Made by a program: the position numbers and the translations under genes. From Naegleria gruberi (Eukaryota), in assembly GCA_000004985.1 (NCBI GenBank), contig GG738879.1: 64,000 nucleotides of DNA; one strand, written 5' to 3'. This document shows positions 3,590-59,700 of the stretch, in pieces (the first letter of the stretch is position 1; each line of letters opens with the position of its first letter). The notes under the pieces were generated by a model. The model was given only the letters and a program-made list of their open reading frames with translations, had not been told where the DNA came from and made no database searches.

Positions 3590-4606
3590 TTACATCATGG
3601 TACAAGCTCCCTTCTTTCTCTTTTTCACCTTATTCATAATTTGGACAGCACAATCCATAAAGCTCTCCTCAACATTTGTTCTAGTTTTTGCAGAAGTTTC
3701 AAAGAAGGTAATATTTCCAAACTTTTTGGCAACTTCACGTCCTTCATCTGCTGAAACAACTCGTTCATTCTTCAAATCTGCCTTATTACCAACCAAGACA
3801 ACTGCTGTCTCACTTGCTAAATTACGATATTCATCAGCATTGTCAAATTCTTTAGCTTGAGCAATTTGTTCAAGGAATGAATAAACTTCATCAAATGAAT
3901 TCCTATTAGTGACACTATAAACAATGACGAAACCTTCTCCTTGTCTAATATATTGATCACGAAGTGTACTATTTCAATGTGACATTTCCACACAAATTAA
4001 AATGATCGTTAGTTTCCAACATGATATATAGTGACACATACCAAAATTCTTCCTGTCCTATTTACGTGCCAACAACAATCACACAAAATATTTGGAAATT
4101 ATTTGACGTTCTCTATGAACAACAATTTCCACACAACAACTTACCAGCAGTATCCAATATATCCAAAATTACTGGTTTTTTTTCAATATGTGTATCTTTT
4201 CGGTATCTTCATCATCAAATATATTAAATTTGTAATATAAATATATATTAACAATTATCATATGTGTTGATTATGACAATAAATATTATATAATAAATAA
4301 TTTAGTGTGATGATGTAAATTTGATGATGTAAAATTTGTACAAATCCACAAATAATAATAATAACAAGAATTGTTATTCATGATGAATTTCTAATAAATT
4401 AATAACATACGAATCTTCCAAGGTCGGATCATATTGTTCTACAAATACATTTTGAATAAGTTGGACGATGAGAGCTGATTTTCCTACACCTCCTAATTTC
4501 CATGTTAAACATTCCAATAATTTAGACGAAACATACCTGAACCGAAAACAACAATTTTCAATTCTTCTGGTTGCTCCTTTGCGTTCTTGTCCTTCTTTGG
4601 TGGCAT
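3590..4606 (-). CDS. Ras-family small GTPase (Ras/Rap-like), 202 aa. Five exons: complement(join(3590..3968, 4042..4057, 4145..4206, 4411..4492, 4537..4606)).
   Basis: Spliced product: [96 protein letters not shown]…LVGNKADL…[14 protein letters not shown]…[14 protein letters not shown]1, G3 (DTAGQE), NKxD and ETSAK motifs are all present. The C-terminus has a polybasic stretch followed by a CAAX box (CTMM). Donors are GTATGT (x3) and GTAAGT; acceptors are AG; exon phases are consistent. It includes a 16-nt micro-exon. Confidence 0.75.
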
Positions 4607-5689: not shown

Positions 5690-6040
5690 TCATCCATACT
5701 ATTGCTCAATAATAATAGTCCTCATTCTCATCATTTGCATCATCCACAACAACACCAACAGCAGCATCAACATCCAAATCATCACAATCACCGATCCATT
5801 ACCATGAGTATGCTTCAACATCAACAATTGGTCGAGTGTTTTGCTCAAGATCAGATCGATCTGGAGAGCGTTTCATCGTCCTATTGTTGTTCACCTCCGT
5901 CTGCTTCCTCCTCCATGCTACCTGCTACAGCTGCACACCATCACGATGAAACAACTTCTTCTTCTTGTGGCTCGGCTAGTCTTGATGTTGGTAGAAATAA
6001 TTATCTGCACCATCATCATCATCAGAAAGGTTCCTTCGAC
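5690..6040 (+). repeat. Imperfect CAN-codon trinucleotide tracts (CAT/CAA/CAG/CAC) encoding His/Gln runs within the RGS-SAM gene's 5' region.
   Basis: Visible runs: catcatcatcatcatcag (6010..6028) and caacaacaccaacagcagcatcaacatccaaatcatcac (5746..5785). Confidence 0.5.
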
Positions 6041-7570
6041 TCGTTCGATTCCAATCATACGAATTCATCATCGGTATCGGCTGTTGTGGATGAGCGATTA
6101 TTATTATCATCATCGAGGAATGATTCCTTCTCTTCCTTTCATTTGATGGAGGAACAGCCTATTTTCATTCATTCACCATCCAATTCTATTTATTCACCCT
6201 CAGAGGAACATGTTCTCTCATCAAGCCTTGATAATAATAATAATGCGATAACACTTAATAACAATTCTAACAATTCTAATAATGATAAAGTAAAAGAGTT
6301 CAGCAAGTTATCATTTACTAATAACAGTACTAATAATCAACATTACAATAATCCACCAACTATTCGATCATCTCCAAGAGATATCAAATCAATTGCCACA
6401 AGTAAAGTTGCCTACTCTCTCAATGATACCAAATCTACTCAATCCAAAGGTCAGATCGAAGAAGGAATATCAGAATTGGAACAATTATTTGCCTCTAGAA
6501 GAGCTTTCAATTCACTTTCGAAAAAGTATTCAACAGATAACTTGCTTAAAGAACAAAAGAAGAGAAACAAACATTCCACTGATAAGGATCATTTACTATT
6601 GCTACAACAGCAACATCAACCTTCTTTGACAAGTGCCTCTTCATTTACTGCCACTACTTCTACATCATTCCTGGAACCATCCTCCAATGCCATTCGTTCA
6701 ACCAAGTCAACTTCATGTCTTTCACCATCTTCCCCAATTAGTGATTCATTTGAAGAGATCAAGTCAATAATTCAAGCTTACTATAATTACGAGTCCTTTG
6801 TTGAGAGTGCAGATGGGAGAGAAGAATTAAGATTATATTTGAGGAAGAGACATAATGAAGAGATGTTATTAATGTTGGAAACTAGAATTACCTTTCTGAG
6901 TTTCTATGAGGAAGGTTCTAATTTCTATGTGGGAAGAAGAGCTCTGTTAAAAGTGAAAGAATTTCAAATGATTTATTCTCAATTCATTGATACCAATTCT
7001 CAATTCTGTATTAATATTGATTCAAGTATAAGAAACAAATTTGTAAAGCTCAACCCTCGAGTGAATAAGGTTAATACAGAAGAAGAGGCTGCTCTTCTAG
7101 TGAAGGAAATTGATGAATGTTTGGACACGCTTCATTTTAGTGTATCACTTCAGGTCAAGACTGAAATTTTCTCACAATTCAAAAAAACGGAGGAATTTCA
7201 AACTTTCATTCTTTCAAAAATTATAGAACTCCAAGGAAAGAAAGCTTGGGAAGGACTTGAACGTCAAAATGGTACATCATTACATGACAGTCCATCCAAT
7301 CATGGAGGATTTTTCTCCTTCCTAAAGAAAAACCCTCAAAATTCAGCCATCAAGAAATTTGAAGAGAAATTAATTGAGGAATTTCTGATAGAAAATGAGC
7401 TCGCTGAATATTGTGGACAATTCAGAAAGAAAAAACTCTACACTCTAAGCCAAATCCAAAACTACTCTTGTGATGATTATCTAAAGTTGGGTGTTATCAA
7501 AGTTACTCATCAGACCCGATTAATTCGTCTCGTTGGACAATATTTCAAATCCTATTGTAATAAGAATTAA
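5804..7570 (+). CDS. RGS-domain plus C-terminal SAM-domain protein with a Ser/Asn/His/Gln-rich low-complexity N-terminus. First in-frame ATG is at 5804; the ORF is open from 5642.
   Basis: RGS signature blocks: ELRLYLRKRHNEEMLLMLETRITFLSF…QMIYSQFIDTNSQFCINIDSSIRNKF…LDTLHFSVSLQVKTEIFSQFKKTEEFQTF. SAM-like C-terminus: EEFLIENELAEYCGQFRKKKLYTLSQIQNYSCDDYLKLGVIKVTHQTRLIRLVGQYF. The track's M at 5642 is GTG. The 54 codons upstream of the first ATG (HHLHHPQQHQQQHQHPNHHNHR) look coding, so the true 5' end is uncertain. Confidence 0.6.
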   Translation: MSMLQHQQLVECFAQDQIDLESVSSSYCCSPPSASSSMLPATAAHHHDETTSSSCGSASLDVGRNNYLHHHHHQKGSFDSFDSNHTNSSSVSAVVDERLLLSSSRNDSFSSFHLMEEQPIFIHSPSNSIYSPSEEHVLSSSLDNNNNAITLNNNSNNSNNDKVKEFSKLSFTNNSTNNQHYNNPPTIRSSPRDIKSIATSKVAYSLNDTKSTQSKGQIEEGISELEQLFASRRAFNSLSKKYSTDNLLKEQKKRNKHSTDKDHLLLLQQQHQPSLTSASSFTATTSTSFLEPSSNAIRSTKSTSCLSPSSPISDSFEEIKSIIQAYYNYESFVESADGREELRLYLRKRHNEEMLLMLETRITFLSFYEEGSNFYVGRRALLKVKEFQMIYSQFIDTNSQFCINIDSSIRNKFVKLNPRVNKVNTEEEAALLVKEIDECLDTLHFSVSLQVKTEIFSQFKKTEEFQTFILSKIIELQGKKAWEGLERQNGTSLHDSPSNHGGFFSFLKKNPQNSAIKKFEEKLIEEFLIENELAEYCGQFRKKKLYTLSQIQNYSCDDYLKLGVIKVTHQTRLIRLVGQYFKSYCNKN

Positions 7571-8575
7571 TAAATACATCATTCCCATCACCTCATTCCA
7601 GTGTTGTATTCATGAAATTTCTCAATCACTTGATGAATAATTTTCACGTGAAATCTTGCATTATCCTAGGCAATTAATATCACCAAATATGGTCATATTT
7701 TTGGTAGTGACATAATTTCAAAAGCACATTTTTTTGCAGTCCAAAGCGAAAAACTCAAAAAGCATTTTTCAACGTATTTGTATGCATCGCTTCGGAGAGA
7801 TGAACATGTGAGAGAACAAATCCATGTGCCTTATTAAAATTGTTCTGTTTTAACCTCCTTAATGAGCCTATAACTGTAGATTCGTTTTACAAGTTTTCAA
7901 ATCGTTTTTTGCATCCTTCTCGAAATGTTGGTGTTGTATAGATTTTTATCCTTCACACATGTGTGATCATCAGTTTGATTGTCAAATGTTACAGCAATTG
8001 TTTAACTATTTTATTTGACAATCTCACAAATTGAATTAATGAGCTTATTTCGAAGTTATTAAATTCACCGAGATGAAGAATCATCATTTTAAAAAGGTGC
8101 CTCATTAACAAACTCAATATCTATTCGAATCAAACGATCGATACAATCTAACAACAACCAATTAATTGTAAGGACCAATTATACATGACGATACAGTTCT
8201 TTTGATTCTCAATCTTGTTTCCTAAAGAGATAACATCCCAACTGCTCTACCTTTTACAAAACAGAGTTTTACTGTGGTGATTGTTTGTTCGCCTCTTTTG
8301 TCCAAAAACGTTTTTCGCCGTGTTTTTTTGGTCAGCCAAAATACAAACAAACAAATAGATGGCAATAAAAGCAGTTTCTTTTGGAGAATATCATCATAGC
8401 ACTATAAAAAACAACGAAACAACTCACTCTCTGGTGACAAAGACGACCACAACTCTCTATTCTCTCACTGCATCATCTCTCTCTAATTGTTATAGTCCCT
8501 CATCATTTCTCATCGTTCATCATCAGCAGAGCAGTGTTCCCAATCATCAGTAACACCACATCATCAGAGAATCTA

Positions 8576-9907
8576 ATGTCCTCACCAACAACTCACTCTA
8601 GTACATCTGGCACTAGCGATGAAGCCATGCCAAATGGAAATCCTAACGATTGTACTTGTCCTACAAATATTAATAATAACATTGTTGGTTCCACTATTAT
8701 TGATGAAGAACTCATCAGGAGAATTGAGGAGGCTCATCAGAATGACCCTAAAATTATTCAATGTTGTAGTACCAATGAAAAGACTGATATTAAACCAATG
8801 CAACAAACCCATGCATTTGAGCAAAAGGAGCTCGATAGAACTCAACAATTACTTGAAACGGCCCTCATTTCTATTATCCAAAAGTATCAAGCACCAAAAC
8901 AAGAACAACAACCAATTATACCAACACCTCTCCCTGTTACTTTACCTCTACCAATAACTATTAATCCACCTAATGTTCTTCAAGATATGATGTGTGCTGC
9001 AGGTGAAAAGAAGGCTAAAGAATCACTTGATCAAGTAATTATCTTGTCATTACTATCCGGTGTTTTTGTTGGTTTTGGTGGTATTGCCTCAATGAAAACT
9101 GGTGGCAGTATGGCCGGATGGGATGCTACCAATCCAGGTTTTGGAAGACTGATCTTCTCAGGTGTTTTTACTGTCGGTTTAATGTTGGTTATTGTTGCAG
9201 GAAGTGAATTATTTACTAGTAATAGTATGGTTATGTTTGTTGCCATGTTGAGAAGAAAGGTTAATGCTTGGCAATTGTGCAAGAATTTGGTTATTTCTCT
9301 CACTTTTAACGTTTTGGGCGCTTTTATTATTTGTTACTTTTTAATGTATTTACCAACTACAGAAAAGGAAATGCACACGGCTCCATTTGTTACGTATGCC
9401 AAATCTCTCGGTGAAAAGAAAGTTTCTCGTTCTCATGGTCTTACTATTCTCTTGGGTATTGGTTGCAATTGGTTGGTTTGTCTTGCTGTCTACATGACCT
9501 ATGCTTCACATATTCTGGTTGACAAATTGATTGCCTTATTCATGCCAATTTTGGCCTTTGTTGCTGGTGGTTTTGAACATTCAGTTGCAAATGGCTTCTT
9601 TATTCCATTAGCAATGTTATACGGTAGTCCAATTACCATGTACGATTTTTTGGTTACCAACTTGATGCCTGCCACACTGGGTAACTTGCTTGGTGGTGCC
9701 TTCTTTGTTGGTATGTGTTTCTGGTACACTCATGGTGTTAGACTTGAAAATATTTACTACTTTGATACCAAATTTACCTTAAAGGCAAGAGAAACTATTG
9801 CTAGACCAATTTTGAATTTGTGGGATAGGGTTGCTGCTCTCAACCCATTCCTCAAGCAAGAAAATCAAGCTCAATCTGCTATTGAGCTTGCTGATCAAAA
9901 AGTGTAA
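8576..9907 (+). CDS. Formate/nitrite transporter (FNT) family channel with an N-terminal low-complexity extension.
   Basis: About 260 aa of C-terminal multi-pass membrane domain matching the FNT family (…GGSMAGWDATNPGFGRLIFSGVFTVGLMLVIVAGSELFTSN…FEHSVANGFFIPLAML…GNLLGGAFFVG…). The N-terminal ~180 aa are Ser/Thr/Asn/Gln-rich. The ORF-track start at 8534 is GTG; the first ATG is 8576. Single exon. Confidence 0.8.
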   Translation: MSSPTTHSSTSGTSDEAMPNGNPNDCTCPTNINNNIVGSTIIDEELIRRIEEAHQNDPKIIQCCSTNEKTDIKPMQQTHAFEQKELDRTQQLLETALISIIQKYQAPKQEQQPIIPTPLPVTLPLPITINPPNVLQDMMCAAGEKKAKESLDQVIILSLLSGVFVGFGGIASMKTGGSMAGWDATNPGFGRLIFSGVFTVGLMLVIVAGSELFTSNSMVMFVAMLRRKVNAWQLCKNLVISLTFNVLGAFIICYFLMYLPTTEKEMHTAPFVTYAKSLGEKKVSRSHGLTILLGIGCNWLVCLAVYMTYASHILVDKLIALFMPILAFVAGGFEHSVANGFFIPLAMLYGSPITMYDFLVTNLMPATLGNLLGGAFFVGMCFWYTHGVRLENIYYFDTKFTLKARETIARPILNLWDRVAALNPFLKQENQAQSAIELADQKV

Positions 9908-9982: not shown

Positions 9983-11359
9983 TCACTTTTTACTTGTACT
10001 GGAAAATCTATTGGTTGAGTGTGAAAGTGCAATAAACAATCCTAAATTCAATAATGCCAGAGTTGCACAACTGCTCAGTGAATTTGGCCCGACCAAAATA
10101 TTTCCATACCTCTTGTCATGAGCATTAGAAACGTCTGATAAATATTGAGATAATCCACCCATGGCCTCATAAATTCCTCTAGCAAATGACGATATAATTC
10201 CATAATCACGAATAGTATTGGTCTCATTCTTAATCTTTTGTGTTACAAAACAAAGTAGAGGTGAAAGCAAAGTATGACTTAAAACCATTGGAATAACACC
10301 CCATCTCGAATTATTTGCTCCATAATTAATACCTGCCAATGTAAGAGGTACATTCCACAAGCCAGAAATAAATCCAATCAACATTGAATTTTTAAAGAAT
10401 TCTAATGTATCAATAGCATCCTTCCTCTTTTCAAGCTTTTCAATTTTGATCAGTCTATTCCACATAAAATCTCTCCATCCTCTTTCTTCACCCCAATAGC
10501 AAAGAGTATTCATAGAAATACCATGACCTAATGATAAAAAGTAGGAGCTTAAAAACAGGGAAGTATATTTTTTCTTCTCTAAGGTTTCTATTAATTGTTG
10601 ATTTACCACTGGATCATGTTTATATTCATCCAAAACTAGGTTCGATGTGGCTGAATATTTTACATTAGGCACCAATCGATTACCAATTAGAATATTTATG
10701 AATGGAGTGAGGGAGGTCAAGAGTAATAATCTAGGAAATGATTGCTCAATAAATAGTTTCTTTAAAAAATTATAAAATCCAGAAAATATTCCCCTTCCAT
10801 CCTGTTTAGATTTGCGAAATGGAAGAATTGTACTATCTTTCTCATATACAGAGTGGTCATACTCAGAAATTCCAATCCAATCCAATATCTCAGCAATAAC
10901 AGCTGGTGAGTAAATAGTCGTAAGGAAAAAAGCAATTTTTGTTAATATTCCACTCTTCTCCAATACATGCGAATAATCATGAGAGCAAATAGCCAATCCA
11001 CTCATCACCACTCCATTACAGGAAATAAATCTAATCACATCCCTCCTCATGCAATCAATTGTTTTTTCCACATTCTTCCTATCGAAAATCATATTCTCCG
11101 ATTCCCTTTCCCTCATCAAACTCTTCATCATGTAATAAATTTCATTCAACACAGCAACTCCCAAACTTCCCTTCAACATTGCCTTAAGAAGAGTAGAGTT
11201 TGATATTCCGTTATTTCCCTCTCCTCCATGCTCCAAAAAACAAATCAAATCAGAGGAAATTTTGGCGAGAAAATCTTTAGCTTGAAGAGACATTTTTTTT
11301 AATATATTCTTTTGTAAACTTTTGATCTCGTGCAATTTTAAGGTATTTAAGAAGGACAT
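9983..11359 (-). CDS. Hypothetical multi-pass membrane protein of 458 aa.
   Basis: Intact ORF with ATG at 11357..11359 (minus). Several hydrophobic helices. No confident family assignment. Confidence 0.5.
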   Translation of the reverse strand: MSFLNTLKLHEIKSLQKNILKKMSLQAKDFLAKISSDLICFLEHGGEGNNGISNSTLLKAMLKGSLGVAVLNEIYYMMKSLMRERESENMIFDRKNVEKTIDCMRRDVIRFISCNGVVMSGLAICSHDYSHVLEKSGILTKIAFFLTTIYSPAVIAEILDWIGISEYDHSVYEKDSTILPFRKSKQDGRGIFSGFYNFLKKLFIEQSFPRLLLLTSLTPFINILIGNRLVPNVKYSATSNLVLDEYKHDPVVNQQLIETLEKKKYTSLFLSSYFLSLGHGISMNTLCYWGEERGWRDFMWNRLIKIEKLEKRKDAIDTLEFFKNSMLIGFISGLWNVPLTLAGINYGANNSRWGVIPMVLSHTLLSPLLCFVTQKIKNETNTIRDYGIISSFARGIYEAMGGLSQYLSDVSNAHDKRYGNILVGPNSLSSCATLALLNLGLFIALSHSTNRFSSTSKK

Positions 11360-11488: not shown

Positions 11489-12997
11489 TTAAATAATGAC
11501 ATTTCCATTTTCTTCGATACTTCTCCACATTTCATTACTCTCCTTACAGAGGAATCCTCTCTTTTCATTAATCTTGATATATTTCGTACCAAGTTTGAGG
11601 AAACTCTTTGCTCTATCTTTCAATATAGTCTTCACTACACCTCTTGGAATATTTCCTTTGAAATCCAAATAGAAAATCTGAGAGTAACGACATGTATTCT
11701 CATCGATTGCCTGGAATGCCCAACCACCCATTGAAACTGCTCTGACTACGCCCTTCTTTGGTTCACTTGGTGCCTTATTTGTTACACAACTCTTCTTACC
11801 AATATAGTAAGTATTGGTTGATGTATCAAATACACCACTGGATGAGACAATAAATTCTCTTGGATTGAATGGCCAAACTAATTTGTAAATTTCTCTTGTC
11901 ACTGAAGAGGCCATCAATGAAGAACCAGTTACTGGTCCATCTGTTGCCTTCTTTTCAACATAATTCAATTGTTCAATTTCACACAAATTACCATCATATT
12001 GCAATCTGTATTCCTTTTCAAAAATTGTATTCATAACATGCTTAATATTAAATGGAAAGGTACAATCAAATTTGAAGAAATTCAACCCAATTGACTCTCC
12101 CATATCATAACTCTTTTTTGAAAAGTAACATTTGTGATGTTTGCTACTTCCAATCACTTCCCATTCGTTAGGATCATAATTTGAGAGTTGCATCTTTAAG
12201 AACTTGAAATCGTTAATGCTGAAACTTTCATTTTTCAAATCACCCAAAGATTCTACATAGAATAATTGAGAATCTTCTTTAACACTACCAATTTCGTATA
12301 AAACTTTCAATGGTTGAGTTTTAAGATAGGTTTTAAAGTAATCACTCTCAAGAAAACTCTTGAAATTATTCTCTTTTAAGCTTAGCAAGACCGATGATTC
12401 AACTTCATCAAATAAATTCTTTGGACAATTGAGACCGTTTGTAGAATTTGATGATAAATTTGAAGCAGAATAATCTGTTGTTGGAGATTTACATCTATTT
12501 GCTATGGTAGAAACACTTTCCGAACTCACTGATGCGGAATCTGTACTGTTAGTTGAATCGAGTGAGTGTCTGGAGACGAAAGGAACAGGTGACCCATTCG
12601 ATTGTGGACTATTTGGATTGTTATTGTTAGCATTACCTCCTGTTGAAGTTCTAGCAGAAACGATTGAAATTGGTGAAGAAGAAACATTATCTGGATTGAG
12701 AACCTTTTGAATCTTGTTTCGAATATCACCTCTCAAGTTTAGTTGTGTATTTGCACCTTCGGCAATAAACCTCTCAAACAAGTCGTGTGCCATTTGAAAT
12801 CTCTTTCTTTCATGTTTAACTTTTCTGTATTCATTTACACATTCTAAAAATTGACAACTTTCTCCATTGAAAGTGGCGCCAAGGTATCCTGTGAAACATT
12901 TAACAGTTGGAGGATGGTCAAAGATAGCTTCAAAATAAATAACGAATTGGTCAATGTCTTGGTCGACAATGAGTCTATCTTTATCATTGAATGACAT
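11489..12997 (-). CDS. Protein with an N-terminal RGS domain and a C-terminal START (StAR-related lipid-transfer) domain, 502 aa.
   Basis: N-terminal RGS-like block: FEAIFDHPPTVKCFTGYLGATFNGESCQFLECVNEYRKVK…AHDLFERFIAEGANTQLNLRGDIRNKI. A Ser/Asn-rich linker follows. C-terminal ~230 aa match the START fold: YDPNEWEVIGSSKHHKCYFSKKS…YRLQYDGNLCEIEQLNYVEKK…REFIVSSSGVFDTSTNTYYIGKKSC…GVVRAVSMGGWAFQAI…IPRGVVKTIL. Single exon with ATG at 12995..12997. Confidence 0.7.
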   Translation of the reverse strand: MSFNDKDRLIVDQDIDQFVIYFEAIFDHPPTVKCFTGYLGATFNGESCQFLECVNEYRKVKHERKRFQMAHDLFERFIAEGANTQLNLRGDIRNKIQKVLNPDNVSSSPISIVSARTSTGGNANNNNPNSPQSNGSPVPFVSRHSLDSTNSTDSASVSSESVSTIANRCKSPTTDYSASNLSSNSTNGLNCPKNLFDEVESSVLLSLKENNFKSFLESDYFKTYLKTQPLKVLYEIGSVKEDSQLFYVESLGDLKNESFSINDFKFLKMQLSNYDPNEWEVIGSSKHHKCYFSKKSYDMGESIGLNFFKFDCTFPFNIKHVMNTIFEKEYRLQYDGNLCEIEQLNYVEKKATDGPVTGSSLMASSVTREIYKLVWPFNPREFIVSSSGVFDTSTNTYYIGKKSCVTNKAPSEPKKGVVRAVSMGGWAFQAIDENTCRYSQIFYLDFKGNIPRGVVKTILKDRAKSFLKLGTKYIKINEKRGFLCKESNEMWRSIEENGNVII

Positions 12998-15365: not shown

Positions 15366-17901
15366 TTATTTCTCATTAAGAGCTAAGGTAATATCCATAA
15401 ATGATCGTTCACCAGTTGTGGAATCAGCAACATTCTTCAAATTGGATGCTCTTTCTTTCAAATCATCAACAAATTTAAGATTGGAAAAGCAAATTGATGG
15501 ACCATCATTATGCTCATTCTCATCTTCACAAGAGGCAGCCATTGAAATAGCTTCGGTTTTCCATTCAGAGATTCTACATTTGAGAACATCAACTTTGGCA
15601 ATCATATTCTCATATTGCCTGCTTTTTAGTTGATCCCTTATGTCAATTAGTGAGTCGTGTAATTCCTTTTGAATGTTATTAGCTTCAGACCACTCTGTTT
15701 CAAGAGTATACACTTCTGTTGGTTTGCTCTTTCCCTTAAGTTTAACAACATCGACGAATAGACAGAGGAACTTTGTTTTAGCTTGTTCATATGTTGATTG
15801 ACCAATCAAAACAGTAGTTTCATATCTCTTATTAAGAGTTTCCAATCTACCCGCAGTATTGACGCTATCTCCAATAGCTGTATAGTTGAATCTTTCCTTA
15901 GAACCTACGTTTCCTATCATGGCATTACCTGAATTCACACCAACTCTAATTCTGAGGTCCGGCCAATTTTCTGCCTTACAACGAATCCTCAACTTTTCGA
16001 TTGCAACAAGTGCATCTAGGGCTGCTTGACATGATTTGTTTTGGTGATCATCTAGCTGTTTGAGAGGGTGAGAGAATAGAGCCATCACACCATCACCAAT
16101 GAATTTGTCTATTACGCCTCCATTTGATTCAACAGCTTCTGTCATTATTCTGAAATATTCTGAGAGGACTTTGAGTAATACTGAAACAGTTGATGATTCT
16201 GAAAAGGTTGTGAAATCAGCAACATCACTGAATAGAATTGATGTTGAGCAATTCACGACGCCTAATTTAGCTCCGATGCCATTTCTCACAATATCTTTAA
16301 CAATATCTTTTGGAATATATTTCATGAAGGAATGAAGAGAATTCTTGACTAATTTCGTTGATTGTTGCAACAAATCTAATTCATACACAACCTTTAAAAG
16401 CTTTGAGGTTTTAACTTCTTCCACTTCCAATTTAGAAATTTTGCTCATATCCTTGGAGACTTTCAAAATAGAACGAGTAATTAATTGAGTGACAATCATG
16501 GCTAAAACAGTTCCAAAAATAATGAAAATAATGGATAGAGATAATAGAGCTGGATCACTTGTCATTACTGTCTTGACAAATCCATAATTTACGGTTGCTT
16601 GAATAATTATCCAATCTAAACCATGATCATCCTTGATAAATTGTACAGATACTCTGTATTGATCTATCTTGAGAATTATGGTAGAGTTATCAGACGAGAG
16701 GGTTGCCATATCTCCATTTGGTCCAATTATTATTTTCTGACTCATTAGGTAATCCGAAATCTTTGAAAAGACACTTGTTGTTTGATTCATATGTACTCTA
16801 TTATTATTGGCATCTCTAGTTTCATAACCCATACTTGTACTAATCAAATAACCTGTTCTCTCAATAATTACAATGTCAATGGATTTAGTTTGGATATCAA
16901 GGTTAGCCTGAATAGTTTCATTAAGGATATAGTCCAATTGATACAAGTCATAATGGGCCCCAATAATCTCTACTACAGATTGTTTTGTGTATGTACCATT
17001 ACTGAGCTGTGTCATGTTATAATTATCATAATCCAAAGTTGTAGCAGCTCCCAGAGATAGGCATTTGATGAAGAAATTATTAAAGACAGTTGACCATTGA
17101 TAGCTTGGATAAGGCGCCTTCAATCCTGCCTTATACCATGGTCTAATTGTTGGATCATAATTCGGAATTCTCATTGATTCTGTAACTGGTTCATAATAGG
17201 TATTATATGAAGAAATTACAACCTCTGCTTGTGGATTTCTAATTTGAACATAATGTCTCGAATTTGAACCTTCTACAGCAATATAATTTTTCATTGAATT
17301 TCCATAATAGAGAATGGTGGTTTGAGGAAATGCAAGCTTTCAAATAGTTATTAGTACTTTTGAATAGTTTGAAAACGAACCTTTGTTGGTGCAAACACTC
17401 TAATGACTCTTTTAACCAAGCCATCAAGATCAAATGGAAGCATATCACCATCCATTCTCCTCTGTAACATAAAACCTTCTCTTATCTGATGAAGAATGGT
17501 CGAAGCTTGACCCATATGATTCTTAATTTCTTCAGAAATATTATCCTCTCTAATACTTGCAATATCATTGATGGATTTTTCTCCACTGTTTACAAAAAAG
17601 TAAGTTGGCAATTAGTACATTTATAAACTAACCTTGAATAAATCAATAATAATAATGAACCAATACAAATAAAGGTCTGTAACAAAAATACAATAATGAG
17701 AATGTTTTGTAATGAATGAAATGCTGGACAAAAGAATTGAATAAATCGCCTTGACGCACTCTTGTTTTCCTTATTGAATGCCATTACAGCACCAATCGAC
17801 GTGTCAGAAAACGATGAATGCATTGATGAGGATTGAGTGTCTGATGATGCAGCACCAATGAATTTGTTATCTGGATCTACGGTGATAGGTTGAATTCTCA
17901 T
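15366..17901 (-). CDS. Receptor-type class III adenylyl/guanylyl cyclase with TM - double Cache sensor - TM - HAMP-like linker - cyclase domain, 814 aa. Three exons: complement(join(15366..17336, 17381..17585, 17633..17901)).
   Basis: Extracellular region carries the dCache hallmark YDPTIRPWYK. The region is flanked by TM1 (ILIIVFLLQTFICIGSLLLLIY) and TM2 (LLSLSIIFIIFGTVLAMIV). Cyclase motifs present: LFSDVADFTTFSE, KFIGDGVMALF, RVGVNSGNAMIGNVGS, YTAIGDSVNTAGRLE. Introns are 47 nt (GTTAGT..AACAG) and 44 nt (GTTCGT..GAAAG), with consistent phases. Confidence 0.75.
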
Positions 17902-29476: not shown

Positions 29477-32400
29477 TTATAATTTTCTAATACCGAATGG
29501 ATCTGGGTCTGGATTGACCAAACTTCCACATGATGAAACGCCACCAAAGTATTTGCATTGTGAAACTGTCATTGATCTTGCAGTTGTTTCACTAGTTGCT
29601 GGAACTCCAACAAATCTCATATTATCCAAAAGGAATTCGACAAAGTTGGTTTGGTCTGCTAAATAGAATACTATTCTTTGAACATTTTGGATAGGAGCAA
29701 AACCAAGTTCAGTGAGTGGAATTCTTATACGTGTAACGGAAGTACCATCAATTCTGAGATATTGAGTGTGATTGGATTGGGTGGTGATTTTGGCAAAGTC
29801 AACCACTTTGGTATCATTCAAATATCCAAATATGAGGGTCAAACCTGAGACTGGACCTGTATTATTGACAGTCTTGATAAAGAATTCAAAGTATTTGAAG
29901 ATACTGGTATCAACATTGATTCTATTGGAACCAATCTTATTGAATGAAATATTACCCTTTCTAAAACCAAAATGTATTGAAGAATTTCCACAAATTGCTG
30001 GAGAGTAAGTCACATTCAAAAAACTATTTCTAACATCTGATGGAATATAGGTGTACATGTACCATTCATTGGTTAATTTCCTTCCTTCATCGTAAATTGA
30101 AATTACATGGGATGAGTTCTTCAGGTTCAAGCTATCACATGGCTTGACTGTGGACACTAATGGTGGTAAATTACAAATAACGGATGTAGCATTATTAATA
30201 TATAATTGAGCTCTCAAATGTCCATTTGGATTTTGTGTGGTTGACAACTTGACAAACATTTTGCCTTGAAGTAAATAGTTCCATTCATTGTAAGATAAAG
30301 TATATCCAAATCTACTTTGGGAGTATGGAACAATATTAGAGTCAGCAATGTACTCCTCCTTTCCAGGAAGTCCAAATCCAATATCAATAGATGTTACAAT
30401 ACTATTTAAATTATGTTGAAGTGTAAAATCGAGAGAATTTGTCCTATTATTGAAAAAAGCAAACACATATCCACCTCCACTAGCAGAGTTGGCTGCCAAA
30501 GGTTTTACACTAGCTTGTTGACTTGCTTCTAATCGCCCAACATATCGATCCTCTCTCATTAGAGCCTTGTAGGTACTTACTGGATTAATTGGATTACTGA
30601 ACTTTGATGGAGCACAGTTATTATTTGGACATGTAGCATTCACATAAAAGACACCACCTGAATAGTAATCAACAAAGGTATCAACCACTCTATATGATGT
30701 TCTTGCAGCATTATTTTTGACTTTCAAATACAAGTGCTCAGTGCTATCATCGTAGTAATAAAAAGTATTTTGTTCCTGCAACATGGTTGAGAAACTAGTG
30801 GTTCTAGTCATATTAATTGAGTTACCATATCTGATATTGAAAATCGTTCCCTTTGGGTATTGAATAGCAATTACAATCCAATCGTTTGTGGCACCAGAGT
30901 CAAGGAAAAAGCTCAAATCTTTTGGTGTTGGAATATCATTAGGCCAACGAATACCGTAAAATCCTCTGGCTATCATATTACTAAGCATGTAATATAAACC
31001 ATTTGCAATAGCGCCAATAACATTCGATTGACGATTTCTCAATAAATCAACAACGATCATTCTCGTAACTGCCTTGCCTGTGTTAATAATATCAGGTCTA
31101 CTAATACCATCACTTCCAGTTGTGTTCATGCCAGTAAAGTTATAATTCAAAACACGGAATTGAGAAAATGATTCACCAAAGAATGGGCATTGGTAAGCAT
31201 TCCAGTCATTTCTTGCTTGACATTGAGGGAATAACATGATTGATTCGTTACCAGTGATCCATCCTCCAATAGATGAAATATTTGTAATGGATCCATCGAC
31301 ATCCATCAATGCAATGGCTTTCTGATTATCATAAGTGGTTGGATAGTTCCATGGGAAAACCATATATCTATTGGCATTGACAAATTTCAAATCAGAATAT
31401 CTATTCTTTGTTTGAAGCTTAAAGTTGTTATTCAATGATGAGAGTGCACCAGCGTATTTGTAAGAATCGGTTAAAAAGTTAATAAATGTAATATTTCTTA
31501 AATATTGTGGACCGCCATTATCATATGTTTCATATCCCTTAATTAAATCCAAATTAGAAGAAATATATTGACCTGGTCTAGTTCTGTTACCATTATCAAT
31601 CTTAGGTCTAAAGGAATATTCACCAACATTTTCAGATTCACCAATAAAGATACTATCTTGAATAATATTCGGACCAGGTGGAGAATTCATTGCGACTCTA
31701 TTATCAGCCAAGTATAAATTTTTGAAACGTAACAATCCACCTCTACACCACAATCCATAACCTCTATTCTTGTAAGCAATGAATCCAACATAAAGTGCCT
31801 CAGTTACTCCAGAAGGAGGGTAATATCCTGCCTGTTCAGTCGAACCATTGGCCTTTTCCATATCGTCTATATGGAGAGCATTTCCTGATGAACTGTGGCC
31901 AACATTGTTTTCGAATGGTTTTGGAGGAGCAGTTCTTGGATTAACAGAACCAGCTGCATATCTGTTTGCACTCAATCCAGTCGGGAATGTTGGCATTGTA
32001 AACCAAAATGGGAAACGACCACCAACAGCATGATTACCAACGAATGTATTGTTTGGATTCGTAATCCAAAATACTGAAACATCAGAATCAGATAAAATGA
32101 TTTGACGAGGATTTTCTCTTGAGATTGGAATGGGGTCAACGCCCAAATTATTGTTAAATTCGTTTCCTACTTCAGAACCATCCTCTAAAAAGTACATATG
32201 ACCAAAAGCACGATAACAAACATTATTCTTCAGAAGAATATAATTAGTATCGTGAACAACAAAACATCTTTGGTAACTGTGATGAACTGTGTTATGTGAA
32301 ATTCAATCCAAATGGTTTGTTTTGTAACAAGTGGAAATGGAAACTATTGAAATTAATGAATATTAAATAACAACAGTTAGATAAATTATTAAAAACCAAA

Positions 32401-33352
32401 CATACCTATATCTTCCCATTAAACCTTGTTGACCAAATCTTGTAATTTCAACTCCTTCCATTTGGAACTTTTCAACCAAACGAATAATAAAGTGACCACC
32501 AAATAATGAACTCTCAGACGAATCATCCCCTCTAAAGACAATTCTTCTTGTTAATAAACCAACCTCTGCACGGATCTTTCCATTTGCACTTGCAAAGTGA
32601 GTAAAGTTCAATGCTCTATCAAGAACAACAGTCTTATTACCATTCAATAATTGAATAATCTTTCGTTCTTCATTTTGATTTGGGAATGGTTCTCCTCTAA
32701 TCCATCCCAAGGAAGCATTCTTTTCAACTCTATAATCATACACCTCACCATAGTCAGTAGAACTAACAACAATAGAATCACCAACATTCCAAGTAACGGC
32801 ATCTCTCAACTCAAGTTGATTAATTCCCTTGGATGCATTCTTAACAATTTCTGTCCAACTTGGACCATAAACTTTACCATACATTTGAACAATTGAACCA
32901 CTTAAGAATGCAATACCCTTAGAACCCAAACTTGCTCCATCATATGGATCTGAACCAATGTCATTAACTGAACTGCTCACACGATCGCCATAGAATGTAA
33001 CAACAACCTTTGAAGTGATTGGACAACTTGAACTTCCCATAATAAAACTACCATTTGATTCAACTCTAATAAAATTCAAATCCAAGCTCAAATTTACATT
33101 ATCAAATATTAAAGAACCACCTGATTTGACCGTAATCGAACGTAATCTATTGGGAGGAGAGACATTCATCTTGACAGCGTTTGAGATAACAATATCAGAA
33201 TTTGCTACATTCCATCCAGTCAAAGTATTAAAATTGACTAGACCAGCTTGTTGATATGGGCATTGTCCAAAAACCAACACACTTTCAATCATAAGTAAAC
33301 ACAATAAAGTGCTCACAAGTAAGATTGTAATACAATGTTTGTTGCAATACAT
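29477..33352 (-). CDS. CEMIP/TMEM2-like secreted protein (G8 domain, GG-type region, right-handed beta-helix), about 1250 aa. Exon 1 at 32406..33352, a 62-nt intron at 32344..32405, exon 2 at 29477..32343. Exon 2 contains an apparent +1 frameshift near 32299..32301.
   Basis: Signal peptide MYCNKHCITILLVSTLLCLLM. N-terminal G8-like region ends …GQQGLMGRY|(intron)|SFHFHLL… (GRYPxHFH motif). After a 1-nt frame change at a T-run, TVHHSYQRCFVVHDTNYILLKNNVCYRAFGHMYFLEDGSE aligns to human TMEM2/CEMIP SIHHTFSRCVTVHGSNGLLIKDVVGYNSLGHCFFTEDGPE. A further ~880 aa are continuous in one frame. Confidence 0.7.
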
Positions 33353-56752: not shown

Positions 56753-59700
56753 TTAATGACTAATCTTATTTATTGGTTTTACAACCCAAATCCATTTACA
56801 TACAATAGAGAAAAAACAATGACCATCAACCACGTTGAATGATGTGATGATTGATGAATCACCCAATCTTTGACTCTCGAGAACTTTTGGTGAAGTTGAA
56901 CATTCACTTCCTGACCATCCACCCACACAAGCACAGTTATTTGGTGAGAAACAACTGCCGTGTCCAGAACAAACAGATACACTTGTGGAGATAGTTCCAT
57001 AACAATCAAATTGGTTACACTCTTTTCCATAGTAGTTATTTGCACATAAACAATTATTTGGTGATAAACAACTGCCGTGTCCAGAACAAACTGATGTGTT
57101 TGTGGAGATTGTTCCATAACAATCAAATTGGCTACAGTCATTTCCGTAGTGATTATTTACACATGAACAATTATTTGGTGAGAGACAGCTACCATTCAAA
57201 CTTCCACCACATGCATTATTGTCAATCAATCCAAAACAAATTGGTGTTCCACATTCTTTACCCGTGTATTCATTTGAGCAGGTGCAATTGTTGAAAGAGG
57301 AACAATTGCCTTTGAATGGACCATTACAGGCATCACTTCCATTCAATCCAAAGCAAATAGGCTTCTCACATTCAATTCCAAACCATCCACTTGTGCATGA
57401 ACAGGTATTTACATCACTACATAATCCATTTCCAGAACAGGCAGCAGTTGAGGTTTTGTTGAAACAAAATGGAAGACAAGTTTGGAAATCATCTTGCATT
57501 TCATAACCATCTGGACATCCAATCTTTCTTACAACTCTTCCATTTCCATTACTCATATGAATTACACCAATGGCATTTGTCAAAGGTGAAACTGAAATTC
57601 CAACAATATCACCAAATGTTGCATTACTCAATAATCCATCTTCCATTGAGGTCGATCCAGATTTTCCAGTCACTAACTTTAACACATTTTCCTTCTCATC
57701 AAATCTATAAATTTCATTGTCTCTCACCAAAATAATGGTTCCAAACTTGGTACATTGTATAGTATAACTTTCAATGGATAAACCATCCAATTGTTTTCTC
57801 AACATTCCATCTGGTGTTAACTTGAAAAAGTATGAATTAATAAGCAAGTAAACATTATCATCATTTGGACATGTGGTGAAATCATTAAATTCCATAAGTG
57901 GAAAGTCAGTTGCTTTGGTAATATTTGGATAAACATAATAAGGATTGTACAAGCCATTGCCAACTATTGTTGAAACTATTCCATTAGCATCAATCTTTCT
58001 CACTCTGCTATATTCATAATCATAAATCATCATTTCTCCGCTATTATAATTCACATTAACACCATATGGAGTAAATTGAGTTTTAGTATAGTGAACATTT
58101 TCCACCAGTTGACCAATAATAGTGGAAACAGTTCTTACATCCATATCCACAATTCTCACTCTTTTACCATCGAGGAAGTATAAATTTCCATCAATGGATG
58201 AAATTCTTGCTGCTGCAACTGTAGCAAGGGTGTTTTCTTCAGAAAGTTCTTTGTTATCCCCACTTACAACAGAACTTCTGGTTGTCTTTCTTTCAACTGA
58301 ATTACCTGTTAATGATATCTCTATTAATTCATTATCGTAAACTGTGAAAATCATGCCATTGTAGTAACTCAAATAGTATGGATAGCCTATTGAGGCAGTT
58401 GAGAGATTACCATTTTGGTAATTGGTGTTTTGGTATTGACCAGCCACAGTAGAAACGACTCCATTAGAAATCTTTCGAATAACACAATTGAAAGTATCTG
58501 AAACATATAGATCTCCATTGGTAGTATCTATATCAAGACCATTGGGAAAGTAAAAACGTGCAGTCTGAATTGGACCATCTTGATATCCACTTATCGTTCC
58601 TCCAGAAAAGGTTGAAACTATTTGAGATGTGAAATTGTAAACTCTGATTCTATGATTATAAGCATCAACAAAATATAGTTGACCATCAAGTGCATTAAAT
58701 GTCAAACCTAGAGGGTAATTTAATTGAACATCCGTGCCAATACCACTTTCATAGTTATTGGAAGTTGAAGAACCTGTTCCAATAATTCTGGTTGATTTTT
58801 CTAAAGAATCAACTCTATAGATAGAGGTTCTATCTGAGAAGTAAACATTAGAATTTGAATCTATTTCAATTGACTGTGGATTTCCATTGTATAGACTATT
58901 ACCTGAACTGTCAGCTGTTATGTGAATAGTTGAAATTATTCCATTTTGTGAAATCTTTCTAATTCTGTCCAAACTTAACAAGTAAATTTCACTTGTTTTC
59001 TTATCAAATTTGATGTCAATATAGTTTGATGAGGTAATTGCTTGCTCAAACGGGACATTATCAACTCCAAAGTAATCTGGAGCAAATAAAAGTCTTGTTC
59101 CATTGGTTAAATACTTGTACATTACTCTATCACCAATGATATAGATATTGTTCTGATTATCAGCATATTCTATTTGATACTTGTTACTTCCAGAAAGACC
59201 TGTGTTAAACAGGAAAGTTGTCAATCCATCTTTAAATTTGACAACTTGTTGGTAACTTGAAACCACAAATGAATCCTCATTCAATGAATAAGCCAGGCTG
59301 TTTCCTTTGACAAATGATTGTCCATAGGTTGTTCCTGAAATAGTGTATGGATCTGGTGAACCTGCTATAATTGTTGTCCATGCTTGTTGATTTTGTAGAT
59401 CTACCTTTCTAATAACTCGATTATCAAGATCGGCAATCAATAATTGATCCAATTGTGGTAGATATTGAATTTGGTAGGGTCTTACATACACATCCTTTCC
59501 ATTTTGTGGAAGATATGTTCTTTCATATGAATTGATATCGTTTCCCAAAAGTGTTGAAACCTGATTAGAATTCATATTCAACACTCTGACACGTTGATTA
59601 TTCAGATCTGAAATGAACAACTCTTGTGTCGAGTCTTTGAATGAAAGAGAGGGAATATAGTAAAACAGAGCTTGAGTTGCATTTCCATCTCTATATCCAT

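What the first reader, a model, noticed from the sequence alone, without database searches (positions are those of the whole stretch)
11489..12997. Unusual RGS + START domain architecture; second RGS gene 4 kb away
One single-exon ORF combines an N-terminal regulator-of-G-protein-signalling domain with a C-terminal START lipid/sterol-transfer domain. This suggests lipid-regulated GAP activity toward G-alpha, or G-protein-regulated lipid transfer. A second RGS protein, with a C-terminal SAM domain and a His/Gln-rich N-terminus, lies at 5804..7570, so two RGS genes fall within 8 kb. The combination is not a standard animal or fungal architecture, and its experimentally tractable domains make it a good candidate for a lineage-specific signalling innovation.
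Basis: partly seen in the sequence, partly recalled or inferred. Interest (0 to 1): 0.5.

Follow-up and report, generated by a model that had tools for sequence, protein, structure and literature searches.

The report
Naegleria RGS–START G-protein regulator gene
This is a real, already annotated gene of the amoeba Naegleria gruberi whose protein joins a G-protein "off-switch" (RGS) domain to a lipid-binding START domain; it belongs to a large, catalogued but never studied family that so far carries names only from Naegleria and its relatives.

Summary
Window 11489..12997(-) is one uninterrupted 502-codon ORF, identical to the deposited Naegleria gruberi model XP_002675284.1 ("G protein signaling regulator"). 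It encodes a complete R4-like RGS box (Pfam 3.2e-19), split by an 86-aa Ser/Asn-rich insert, then a C-terminal START domain. START is below Pfam's cut-off in this protein (18.1 vs 22 bits). It is confirmed by the predicted helix-grip fold (Foldseek: STARD10 3e-12, STARD4 TM 0.8) and by a family profile (STARD10 8e-20).

The fusion is not an annotation artefact. At least 117 proteins retrieved here carry RGS followed by START, and every named one is heterolobosean (Naegleria, Willaertia, Acrasis). N. gruberi has at least five paralogues. The GAP-critical Asn (RGS4 Asn128) is kept in 108/117.

The second gene (5804..7570) has a clear SAM domain and only a weak, divergent RGS-like domain. It is not a duplicate of the first, and the proximity is unremarkable in a genome with many RGS genes.

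RGS+START is listed in de Mendoza et al. 2014 and shows in database annotation of the orthologues, so it is known but functionally uncharacterised. Most likely it is a lipid-targeted or lipid-gated Gα GAP. Interest is modest.

The parts
11489..12997 (-). Complete single-exon CDS (502 aa plus stop) of the RGS-START protein, identical to N. gruberi XP_002675284.1 / D2VL08
   Evidence: An in-frame TAA lies directly upstream of the ATG. Orthologues align end to end.
12686..12976 (-). RGS box, N-terminal part (residues 8-104, helices a1-a6). It includes E46 (equivalent to RGS4 Glu87) and N87 (equivalent to RGS4 Asn128, nt 12737..12739).
   Evidence: Pfam RGS 3.2e-19. Alignment to RGS4 and RGS8. N87 is conserved in 108/117 family members.
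12428..12685 (-). 86-aa Ser/Asn-rich low-complexity insert in the RGS a6-a7 loop (residues 105-190), predicted disordered. It holds a conserved R-x-S-x-D-S motif at residues 143-148 (nt 12554..12571).
   Evidence: pLDDT is below 50 across residues 78-193. Insert length varies and sequence is poorly conserved among orthologues. Most family members have no insert (median gap 8 aa), and the motif is present in 11/11 members of the subclade.
12290..12427 (-). RGS box, C-terminal part (residues 191-236, helices a7-a9: CPKNLFDEVE...FLESDYFKTYLK)
   Evidence: An insert-deleted construct aligns across the whole RGS box of RGS8, RGS10 and RGS4 (RGS4 residues 54-174). Helices 195-236 appear in the model.
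11558..12235 (-). START (helix-grip) lipid-binding domain, residues ~255-480. It includes the PREF motif Arg380 (nt 11858..11860), which is conserved family-wide.
   Evidence: Pfam START is sub-threshold at 0.0018. The model shows a-b3-a2-b6-long C-terminal helix. Foldseek hits STARD10 at 3e-12 and STARD4 at TM 0.81. The family profile matches STARD10 at 8.3e-20. R380 is conserved in 100/117.
5804..7570 (+). Neighbouring gene NAEGRDRAFT_80393 (588 aa). It has a His/Gln/Ser-rich N-terminus, a divergent RGS-like domain (~nt 6788..7207) and a C-terminal SAM domain (~nt 7376..7534). It is not part of the RGS-START gene; listed because the finding cites it.
   Evidence: Exact match to XP_002675197.1. 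SAM_1 1.8e-5 passes; RGS at 6.1e-4 is below cut-off. Weak RGS and good SAM fold matches. Only a 26-column weak hhalign match to the RGS-START family.

Best explanation
The gene encodes a soluble or peripheral-membrane regulator of heterotrimeric G-protein signalling.

Proposed mechanism:
- The N-terminal R4-like RGS box binds GTP-bound G-alpha and accelerates GTP hydrolysis (GAP). This is inferred from the conserved RGS fold and the Asn128-equivalent residue, and from the fact that Naegleria RGS domains tested so far are canonical GAPs.
- The C-terminal START domain binds a hydrophobic ligand, most likely a phospho- or sphingolipid or a sterol. Through that ligand it either targets the GAP to particular membranes or gates its activity. 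Lipid state would thereby set how fast G-alpha signalling is switched off.
- The disordered Ser-rich insert in the RGS a6-a7 loop, with its conserved R-x-S-x-D-S motif, is probably a phospho-regulatory site.

Shown here: the domain identities, the single-gene status, and family-wide conservation of domain order and key residues. Inferred: GAP activity, lipid binding, and any coupling between the two.
For: Gene and domain identities:
- One ORF, identical to the deposited model.
- Pfam RGS 3.2e-19.
- The insert-deleted RGS aligns end to end with RGS8, RGS10 and RGS4.
- The family profile is closest to the R4 RGS proteins, which are canonical GAPs (RGS8 4.4e-20; also RGS2 and RGS4).

Conserved contact residues:
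- The RGS4 Asn128 equivalent is Asn in 108/117 family members.
- The Glu87 equivalent is Glu or Asp in 101/117.

START domain:
- The fold is confirmed.
- The family profile matches STARD10 at 8.3e-20, PCTP at 2e-11 and CERT at 2e-9.
- The START 'PRDF'-type Arg is conserved in 100/117.

Fusion under selection:
- The order RGS then START recurs in 117 retrieved proteins, including at least five N. gruberi paralogues and members from four other heterolobosean species. This argues for selection on the fusion.

Naegleria context:
- N. fowleri RGS domains are canonical, selective GAPs for Nf G-alpha subunits. Some of those subunits are self-activating, so the GAP step is the regulated one (PMC9283941).
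Against: - No biochemical data exist for any RGS-START protein (searches found none).
- Several residues that line the G-alpha Thr182 pocket in RGS4 differ here: S85->N, N88->S, D163->N, S164->N, R167->S. GAP potency and target cannot be read off.
- START is below Pfam threshold in this very protein.
- The model's inter-domain geometry is unreliable (pTM 0.43), so nothing shows that the two domains communicate.
- The START ligand is not identifiable from sequence. START domains fused to GAPs in animals (DLC1-3) have no established lipid ligand (own knowledge).
Confidence: 0.6

Rival explanations
1. G-alpha effector rather than GAP. The RGS box mainly serves to recruit the protein to activated G-alpha, as in RGS-RhoGEFs. 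The START domain is the output: a lipid-transfer or lipid-presenting activity switched on or localised by G-alpha-GTP, i.e. G-protein-regulated lipid transport.
For: - Several canonical G-alpha-contact residues have diverged.
- RGS-containing effectors exist in Naegleria and Entamoeba, namely Nf RGS-RhoGEF and EhRGS-RhoGEF (PMC9283941).
- The START family profile is closest to true lipid-transfer proteins: STARD10, PCTP and CERT.
Against: - The Asn128 equivalent, the residue most tied to GAP function, is nearly invariant (108/117).
- Even the Naegleria RGS-RhoGEF RGS domain acts as a canonical GAP, so the effector and GAP roles are not exclusive.
- There is no second membrane-targeting module (PH, FFAT) of the kind that lipid-transfer proteins such as CERT use; Pfam finds only RGS and START.
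Confidence: 0.2
2. START is a degenerate or purely structural module (localisation or protein-protein interaction, no lipid ligand). The protein is then simply one more of the many Naegleria RGS GAPs.
For: - START is below Pfam threshold here (18.1 bits).
- Only 13 of 25 diverse family members pass START at E<=1e-3.
- DLC-family START domains have no confirmed ligand (own knowledge).
Against: - The fold is predicted with pLDDT 70-89 and matches ligand-binding STARTs over ~220-240 columns.
- The START Arg is conserved in 100/117.
- The domain is retained across deep heterolobosean divergence, from Acrasis to Naegleria.
Confidence: 0.15
3. Annotation or reading artefact: two adjacent genes (RGS and START) wrongly read as one, or an unrecognised intron or stop between them.
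For: On the related metagenomic contig L001 a gene caller split the orthologue into an 'RGS' gene and a 'START' gene.
Against: - In the window there is no stop in 502 codons.
- The L001 split lies inside RGS helix a7. It is caused by a 65-bp GTATGT...AG intron, and removing it yields one 492-aa ORF.
- The RGS C-terminal helices and the START domain are contiguous, and the linker is conserved in all orthologues.
- 117 proteins share the same domain order.
Confidence: 0.02

Closest known systems
R4-subfamily RGS proteins (RGS4, RGS8, RGS2, RGS16, RGS18)
   Same: - Complete nine-helix RGS box with the best sequence matches: RGS8 3.6e-7 with the single sequence and 4.4e-20 with the family profile.
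- The Asn128 and Glu87 equivalents are conserved.
- GAP function toward G-alpha is expected.
   Different: - An 86-aa disordered insert sits in the a6-a7 loop.
- A C-terminal START domain is present, whereas R4 proteins are little more than the RGS box.
- The Thr182-pocket residues (S85, N88, D163, S164, R167) differ.
- No N-terminal amphipathic or palmitoylated helix was identified.
DLC1/2/3 (STARD12/13/8): SAM-RhoGAP-START proteins of animals
   Same: - The same logic: a GTPase-activating domain followed by a C-terminal START domain.
- STARD13's START domain is among the top structural matches (2pso, 6e-11).
   Different: - The GAP domain in DLC proteins is RhoGAP, acting on Rho-family small GTPases. 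It is not RGS acting on heterotrimeric G-alpha, and there is no homology between the GAP modules.
- SAM is absent from this protein; a SAM domain occurs in the separate neighbouring gene.
- The fusions arose independently.
Phospholipid/ceramide START proteins (STARD10, PCTP/STARD2, CERT/STARD11)
   Same: These are the closest START relatives by family profile (STARD10 8.3e-20, PCTP 2.3e-11, CERT 1.8e-9) and by fold.
   Different: - Identity is only 13-20%.
- The ligand-specifying residues are not demonstrably conserved.
- STARD6 and STARD4 (the sterol group) match nearly as well, so ligand class is open.
- None of these is fused to RGS.
RGS proteins with lipid-binding or sensor modules: SNX13/14/25 (PXA-RGS-PX), GRK2 (RGS-kinase-PH), plant/Naegleria 7TM-RGS
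   Same: - An RGS box is combined with a membrane- or lipid-reading or sensor module.
- In Naegleria, 7TM-RGS proteins are GAPs for self-activating G-alpha (PMC9283941). This gives a precedent for a 'sensor-GAP' logic.
   Different: The sensor here is a soluble START pocket, not a PX, PH or 7TM module. No transmembrane segment or other Pfam domain is found.
Yeast Sst2 (RGS with an interrupted RGS box)
   Same: The RGS box is split by a long, regulated insert (own knowledge; not tested here).
   Different: Sst2 has DEP domains and no START. Its insert position and sequence are unrelated.

Membership tests
RGS domain family (Pfam PF00615) | Significant match to the RGS profile above the curated cut-off | tested here: met
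   E=3.2e-19, 69.9 bits against a cut-off of 23.9.
RGS domain family (Pfam PF00615) | Complete nine-helix RGS box | tested here: met
   Two halves (residues 8-104 and 191-236) together align across RGS4 residues 54-174 and RGS8 residues 12-131. The helices are present in the model. The a6-a7 loop carries an 86-aa insert.
RGS domain family (GAP-competent subset) | Conserved Asn (RGS4 Asn128) that contacts G-alpha switch II / Gln204 | tested here: met
   N87 lies in 'TQLNLR'. It is Asn in 108/117 family members.
RGS domain family (GAP-competent subset) | RGS4-type pocket for G-alpha switch I Thr182 (Ser85, Glu87, Asn88, Asp163, Ser164, Arg167) | tested here: inconclusive
   Only Glu87 is kept. 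The other positions read N, S, N, N and S in this protein. These positions also vary among functional RGS proteins (own knowledge), and the cognate Naegleria G-alpha is unknown.
RGS domain family (GAP-competent subset) | Acceleration of G-alpha GTP hydrolysis | not testable with these tools
   Requires recombinant protein and Naegleria G-alpha subunits, using an assay as in PMC9283941.
START domain family (Pfam PF01852) | Match to the START profile above the curated cut-off | tested here: not met
   This protein scores 18.1 bits, E=0.0018, against a cut-off of 22, and only model positions 90-195 match. The orthologues P0005, P0007 and P0008 do carry PF01852. 13 of 25 diverse family members match at E<=1e-3.
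START domain family (Pfam PF01852) | Helix-grip fold: N-terminal helix, nine-stranded antiparallel sheet, long C-terminal helix | tested here: met
   The model shows H261-272, strands 279-443 and H452-479, with pLDDT 70-89. Foldseek hits STARD10 at 3.1e-12 and CERT, STARD13, STARD4 (TM 0.81) and StAR, all at probability 1.0.
START domain family (Pfam PF01852) | Sequence-level homology to solved START domains | tested here: met
   The family profile A2 matches STARD10 at 8.3e-20 over 199-411 vs 27-224, STARD6 at 1e-12, PCTP at 2.3e-11 and CERT at 1.8e-9. The window protein belongs to that family: the A1 profile retrieved the A2 members at E<=1e-20.
START domain family (Pfam PF01852) | Hydrophobic tunnel that binds one lipid or sterol molecule | not testable with these tools
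   Model coordinates could not be inspected for cavity volume, and no ligand assay is possible. The conserved Arg380 (100/117) is consistent with the buried Arg typical of START pockets (own knowledge).
DLC-type GAP-START proteins (STARD8/12/13) | RhoGAP domain N-terminal to START, plus an N-terminal SAM domain | tested here: not met
   Pfam finds only RGS and START, with no RhoGAP and no SAM. The relationship is a functional analogy only.
Heterolobosean RGS-START family (defined here operationally) | RGS box followed by a START domain in one polypeptide, retrieved by a full-length profile | tested here: met
   117 retrieved proteins have RGS-N plus START. Named members come from N. gruberi (at least 5 paralogues), N. 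fowleri, N. lovaniensis, Willaertia magna and Acrasis kona.
Second gene: RGS-SAM protein | RGS profile match above cut-off, and SAM profile match above cut-off | tested here: inconclusive
   SAM_1 scores 25.4 bits against 23, so it is met. RGS scores 20.6 bits against 23.9, so it is not met, although the full model length is aligned. Fold search is weak for RGS (E 0.05-0.3, TM ~0.5) on a low-confidence model. UniProt labels the protein as RGS domain-containing.

The most novel reading that the evidence does not exclude
RGS-START proteins may be soluble 'lipid receptor-GAPs'. Some Naegleria G-alpha subunits self-activate, so GTP hydrolysis is their controlled step. In that setting the START pocket would act as the signal-input domain: occupancy by a specific lipid or sterol switches GAP activity or membrane residence. 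That would make an intracellular lipid the ligand of a heterotrimeric G-protein pathway without a GPCR. The family would be a heterolobosean invention that expanded to several paralogues per genome, each perhaps tuned to a different lipid or G-alpha.
Probability: 0.2. Interest if true: 0.6.

Novelty: already known. Interest (0 to 1): 0.27.

Why it matters
If the START domain really controls the RGS domain, this family would link membrane-lipid state directly to the switch-off of heterotrimeric G proteins. It would do so in a lineage where some G-alpha subunits activate themselves and GAPs are the main control point. It would also give N. fowleri, a lethal pathogen, a parasite-lineage-specific signalling protein with a small-molecule pocket.

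As it stands, this is a correctly spotted but already annotated and catalogued architecture with no functional data. The practical gains here are:
- confirming the START domain that Pfam misses in this paralogue;
- describing the split RGS box;
- delimiting the family.

Tried and rejected
- Pfam alone for START: sub-threshold. I moved to structure and family profiles.
- PDB profile search with the 9-sequence A1 alignment: START only at E=0.18, which is too shallow. The 25-member A2 profile gave 8.3e-20.
- Foldseek against afdb50, to find the architecture in other taxa: the library was not available.
- Anantharaman et al. 2011 (PMC3396428 / PMID 21182906), the likeliest place for a description of RGS architectures: not held. 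The supplementary figure S6 of de Mendoza 2014 is also not held, so I could not see which 'divergent taxa' carry RGS+START.
- Literature searches for RGS-START, 'RGS domain' plus 'START domain', and Heterolobosea plus RGS plus START found nothing specific.
- Tandem-duplication idea for the two RGS genes: rejected. hhalign gave only a 26-column match at E=0.072, the genes lie on opposite strands, and two unrelated genes sit between them.
- 'Two separate genes' idea, raised by the split gene calls on L001: rejected, because the split is a 65-bp intron.
- Taxon names for the most divergent metagenomic members (P0055, P0057, P0064, P0102 and others): the sources give none. Whether the family extends beyond Heterolobosea is therefore not settled.
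- The homologue search for the RGS-SAM protein found only three close metagenomic relatives and no N. fowleri or N. lovaniensis orthologue.
Full report
**Source and gene model**

The window is AT-rich (about 33% GC) and comes from Naegleria gruberi strain NEG-M.

- The 502-aa translation of 11489..12997(-) is identical over its full length to EFC42540.1 / XP_002675284.1 / UniProt D2VL08, named 'G protein signaling regulator'.
- The ORF is 1509 nt with no internal stop. An in-frame TAA sits immediately before the ATG.
- Orthologues from N. fowleri (FDP41_013009, 547 aa) and N. lovaniensis (C9374_005354), and several metagenomic relatives, begin with the same M-x-FNDK-R N-terminus and align to the last residue.

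**RGS domain**

- Pfam RGS matches at E=3.2e-19 (69.9 bits, cut-off 23.9) in two stretches.
- The box is split. Residues 8-104 give helices a1-a6 and residues 191-236 give a7-a9.
- Between them lies an 86-aa Ser/Asn-rich segment (25 Ser, 13 Asn) that the AlphaFold2 model leaves disordered (pLDDT below 50 over 78-193).
- When the insert is deleted in silico, the sequence aligns across the whole RGS box of RGS8, RGS10 and RGS4 (RGS4 residues 54-174; E about 4e-7 to 8e-6).
- In that alignment, and in the profile alignment to RGS4, the residue equivalent to RGS4 Asn128 is Asn87 (TQLNLR) and Glu87 is Glu46.
- The other residues of the RGS4 pocket for G-alpha Thr182 differ: S85->N, N88->S, D163->N, S164->N, R167->S.
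- Across 117 family members that I aligned with my own sub-domain HMMs, the Asn128 position is Asn in 108 and the Glu87 position is Glu or Asp in 101.
- The insert is a peculiarity of the subclade holding the window protein. The median gap between the two RGS halves in the family is 8 residues.
- Inside the otherwise unconserved insert, an R-x-S-x-D-S motif (RHSLDS, residues 143-148) is present in all 11 subclade members. I take this as a likely phosphorylation site, which is inference.

**START domain**

- On Pfam alone this protein fails: E=0.0018, 18.1 bits against a cut-off of 22, with only the C-terminal half of the model matched.
- The alignment-based AlphaFold2 model gives residues about 260-480 the START topology: helix 261-272, three strands, two short helices, six more strands and a long C-terminal helix 452-479, with pLDDT mostly 70-89.
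- Foldseek against the PDB returns only START domains at the top: STARD10 3.1e-12, CERT 2.9e-11, STARD13 6e-11, STARD4 8.9e-11 (target TM 0.81), then STARD5, StAR, STARD6, ACOT11, PCTP and STARD3, all at probability 1.0.
- Orthologues P0005, P0007 and P0008 carry precomputed PF01852 hits.
- A profile of 25 diverse family members matches STARD10 at 8.3e-20 over essentially the whole domain, STARD6 at 1e-12, PCTP at 2.3e-11 and CERT at 1.8e-9.
- The Arg of the START 'PRDF' motif (R380 in PREF) is conserved in 100 of 117 members.
- The START call is therefore sound. The ligand class is not determinable: the nearest relatives are the phospholipid/ceramide group, but sterol-type STARTs match almost as well.

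**One gene or two?**

The window has no stop or frame change. A related metagenomic contig (L001, JGI Ga0247390_1011352, 7284 bp) shows the same neighbourhood, but its gene caller split the orthologue into an 'RGS' and a 'START' gene.

- The break lies inside RGS helix a7, not between the domains.
- It is a 65-bp GTATGT...AG intron. Removing it gives a single 492-aa ORF reading ...FDEVEGLVLLSLKEN....
- This refutes the artefact explanation. It also shows intron presence/absence variation between close relatives.

**Family and distribution**

- An exhaustive HMMER search with the full-length profile against 1.84 billion representatives found 559 proteins at E<=1e-3 and 137 at E<=1e-10.
- Mapping RGS-N, RGS-C and START sub-profiles onto all proteins retrieved shows 117 with RGS followed by START, typically 400-600 aa.
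- Pfam on 25 diverse members finds RGS in 25 and START in 13.
- Every member that carries a source name is heterolobosean:
  - N. gruberi: D2VL08, D2VB07, D2VTP8, D2VNN4 and the 590-aa 'predicted protein' P0071;
  - N. fowleri;
  - N. lovaniensis;
  - Willaertia magna, seven proteins;
  - Acrasis kona.
- The rest are unnamed metagenome or transcriptome sequences, so a wider distribution is not excluded.
- de Mendoza et al. [quoted passage not shown] I could not see their supplementary figure.
- No paper in the held library studies an RGS-START protein.

**Second gene and neighbourhood**

- 5804..7570(+) equals XP_002675197.1 / D2VL05.
- SAM_1 passes (1.8e-5). RGS is just under the cut-off (20.6 vs 23.9 bits) but spans the whole model.
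- A low-confidence model (mean pLDDT 63) gives weak RGS matches (E 0.05-0.3, TM about 0.5) and good SAM matches (TM 0.75-0.86).
- The gene is therefore best read as a divergent RGS-like domain plus SAM.
- It is not a duplicate of the RGS-START gene. Profile comparison aligns only 26 columns around the a5-a6 'CINID' segment (E=0.072).
- The gene order in the window is:
  - RGS-SAM (+);
  - a formate/nitrite transporter, 8534..9907 (+), Pfam 1e-71;
  - an unknown 458-aa ORF, 9983..11359 (-);
  - RGS-START (-);
  - TatD DNase, from about 14329 (+);
  - an adenylate/guanylate cyclase, 15366..17294 (-).
- L001 keeps TatD, RGS-START, the transporter and SAM, but has no room for the 458-aa ORF.
- N. 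fowleri encodes 79 RGS-domain proteins besides the 7TM-RGS class and one RGS-RhoGEF (PMC9283941). With roughly one RGS gene per few hundred kb, a handful of pairs within 8 kb is expected by chance.
- No N. fowleri or N. lovaniensis orthologue of the RGS-SAM gene was found, so the linkage is not deeply conserved.

**Mechanism**

- Best supported (0.6): a G-alpha GAP whose C-terminal START domain reads a lipid and thereby places or gates the GAP, with the disordered insert as a phospho-regulatory element.
- Shown here: both domains, their order, and family-wide conservation of the key Asn and the START Arg.
- Inferred: GAP activity, lipid binding and coupling.
- Context from PMC9283941: Naegleria RGS domains tested so far (7TM-RGS and RGS-RhoGEF) are canonical, selective GAPs that depend on the switch-I glycine. 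Some Nf G-alpha subunits are self-activating, which makes GAPs the regulated step and makes sensor-GAP fusions a sensible design.
- Rivals:
  - a G-alpha effector whose output is START-mediated lipid transfer (0.2);
  - a ligand-less START used only for localisation (0.15);
  - a gene-model artefact (0.02, refuted).

**Comparison and novelty**

- The RGS box is closest to the R4 RGS proteins.
- The START domain is closest to STARD10, PCTP and CERT.
- The overall logic resembles the animal DLC1-3 proteins (SAM-RhoGAP-START), but with a non-homologous GAP module. That is analogy, not membership.
- The gene has been in public databases since the N. gruberi genome. Orthologues are already labelled RGS+START, and the combination is mentioned in a comparative survey.
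- I therefore rate the finding as already known at the level of architecture, though uncharacterised functionally.
- Details added here:
  - START confirmed where Pfam misses it;
  - the split RGS box and its conserved RxSxDS motif;
  - at least five N. gruberi paralogues;
  - named members restricted to Heterolobosea.
- Interest 0.27. The boldest reading not excluded, a soluble lipid receptor-GAP for self-activating G-alpha, has probability about 0.2 and would deserve about 0.6.

Noticed in passing
L001:3206-3270 (JGI metagenome contig Ga0247390_1011352); corresponds to about window 12380-12395(-): The orthologue in a close Naegleria relative has a 65-bp GTATGT...AG intron inside RGS helix a7. 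The window gene lacks it. A prokaryote-style gene caller therefore split that orthologue into separate 'RGS' and 'START' proteins (P0006 is the START half).
   Followed up: yes
window 9983-11359 (-): A 458-aa ORF between the transporter and the RGS-START gene has no Pfam match. Its exact sequence is absent from the 15-billion-protein collection. It has no counterpart on the syntenic contig L001, where only about 330 bp separate the flanking genes. It has several hydrophobic stretches and a 'WGEERGWR' motif reminiscent of CPBP/Abi-type intramembrane proteases. It may be a lineage-specific insertion or a mis-modelled gene.
   Followed up: partly
window 12554-12571 (-), residues 143-148: A conserved R-x-S-x-D-S motif (RHSLDS) lies inside the otherwise unconserved, disordered RGS insert. 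It is present in all 11 members of the subclade and is a likely phosphorylation site.
   Followed up: partly
window 8534-9907 (+): A formate/nitrite transporter (FNT) family gene (Pfam 9.9e-72) with a long Ser/Thr/Asn-rich N-terminal extension. The family is mostly prokaryotic. The gene is conserved next to RGS-START in the relative L001.
   Followed up: no
window 15366-17294 (-): An adenylate/guanylate cyclase catalytic-domain protein (Pfam 1.3e-20) lies 2.4 kb from the RGS-START gene. Three signalling genes (RGS-SAM, RGS-START, cyclase) thus lie within 12 kb. This is probably chance, given the large Naegleria cyclase and RGS repertoires.
   Followed up: no
window about 4380-4480 (-): An exon encodes a Ras-type P-loop and switch I ('[29 protein letters not shown]'). 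It indicates an intron-containing small-GTPase gene just upstream of the RGS-SAM gene.
   Followed up: no
P0009 (N. fowleri FDP41_000888) vs P0002 (FDP41_013009): N. fowleri has a second locus encoding a near-identical but truncated copy of its RGS-START orthologue. The RGS N-half and a7-a9 are missing and the START C-terminus is cut. It may be a recent partial duplication, a pseudogene or an assembly artefact.
   Followed up: no
window 29477-33352 (-) and 56753-60442 (-): These are large secreted or surface-type proteins with animal-like domain sets: G8 + CEMIP beta-helix + CHRD, and teneurin-like NHL + EGF repeats. Such sets are typical of the Naegleria extracellular repertoire.
   Followed up: no
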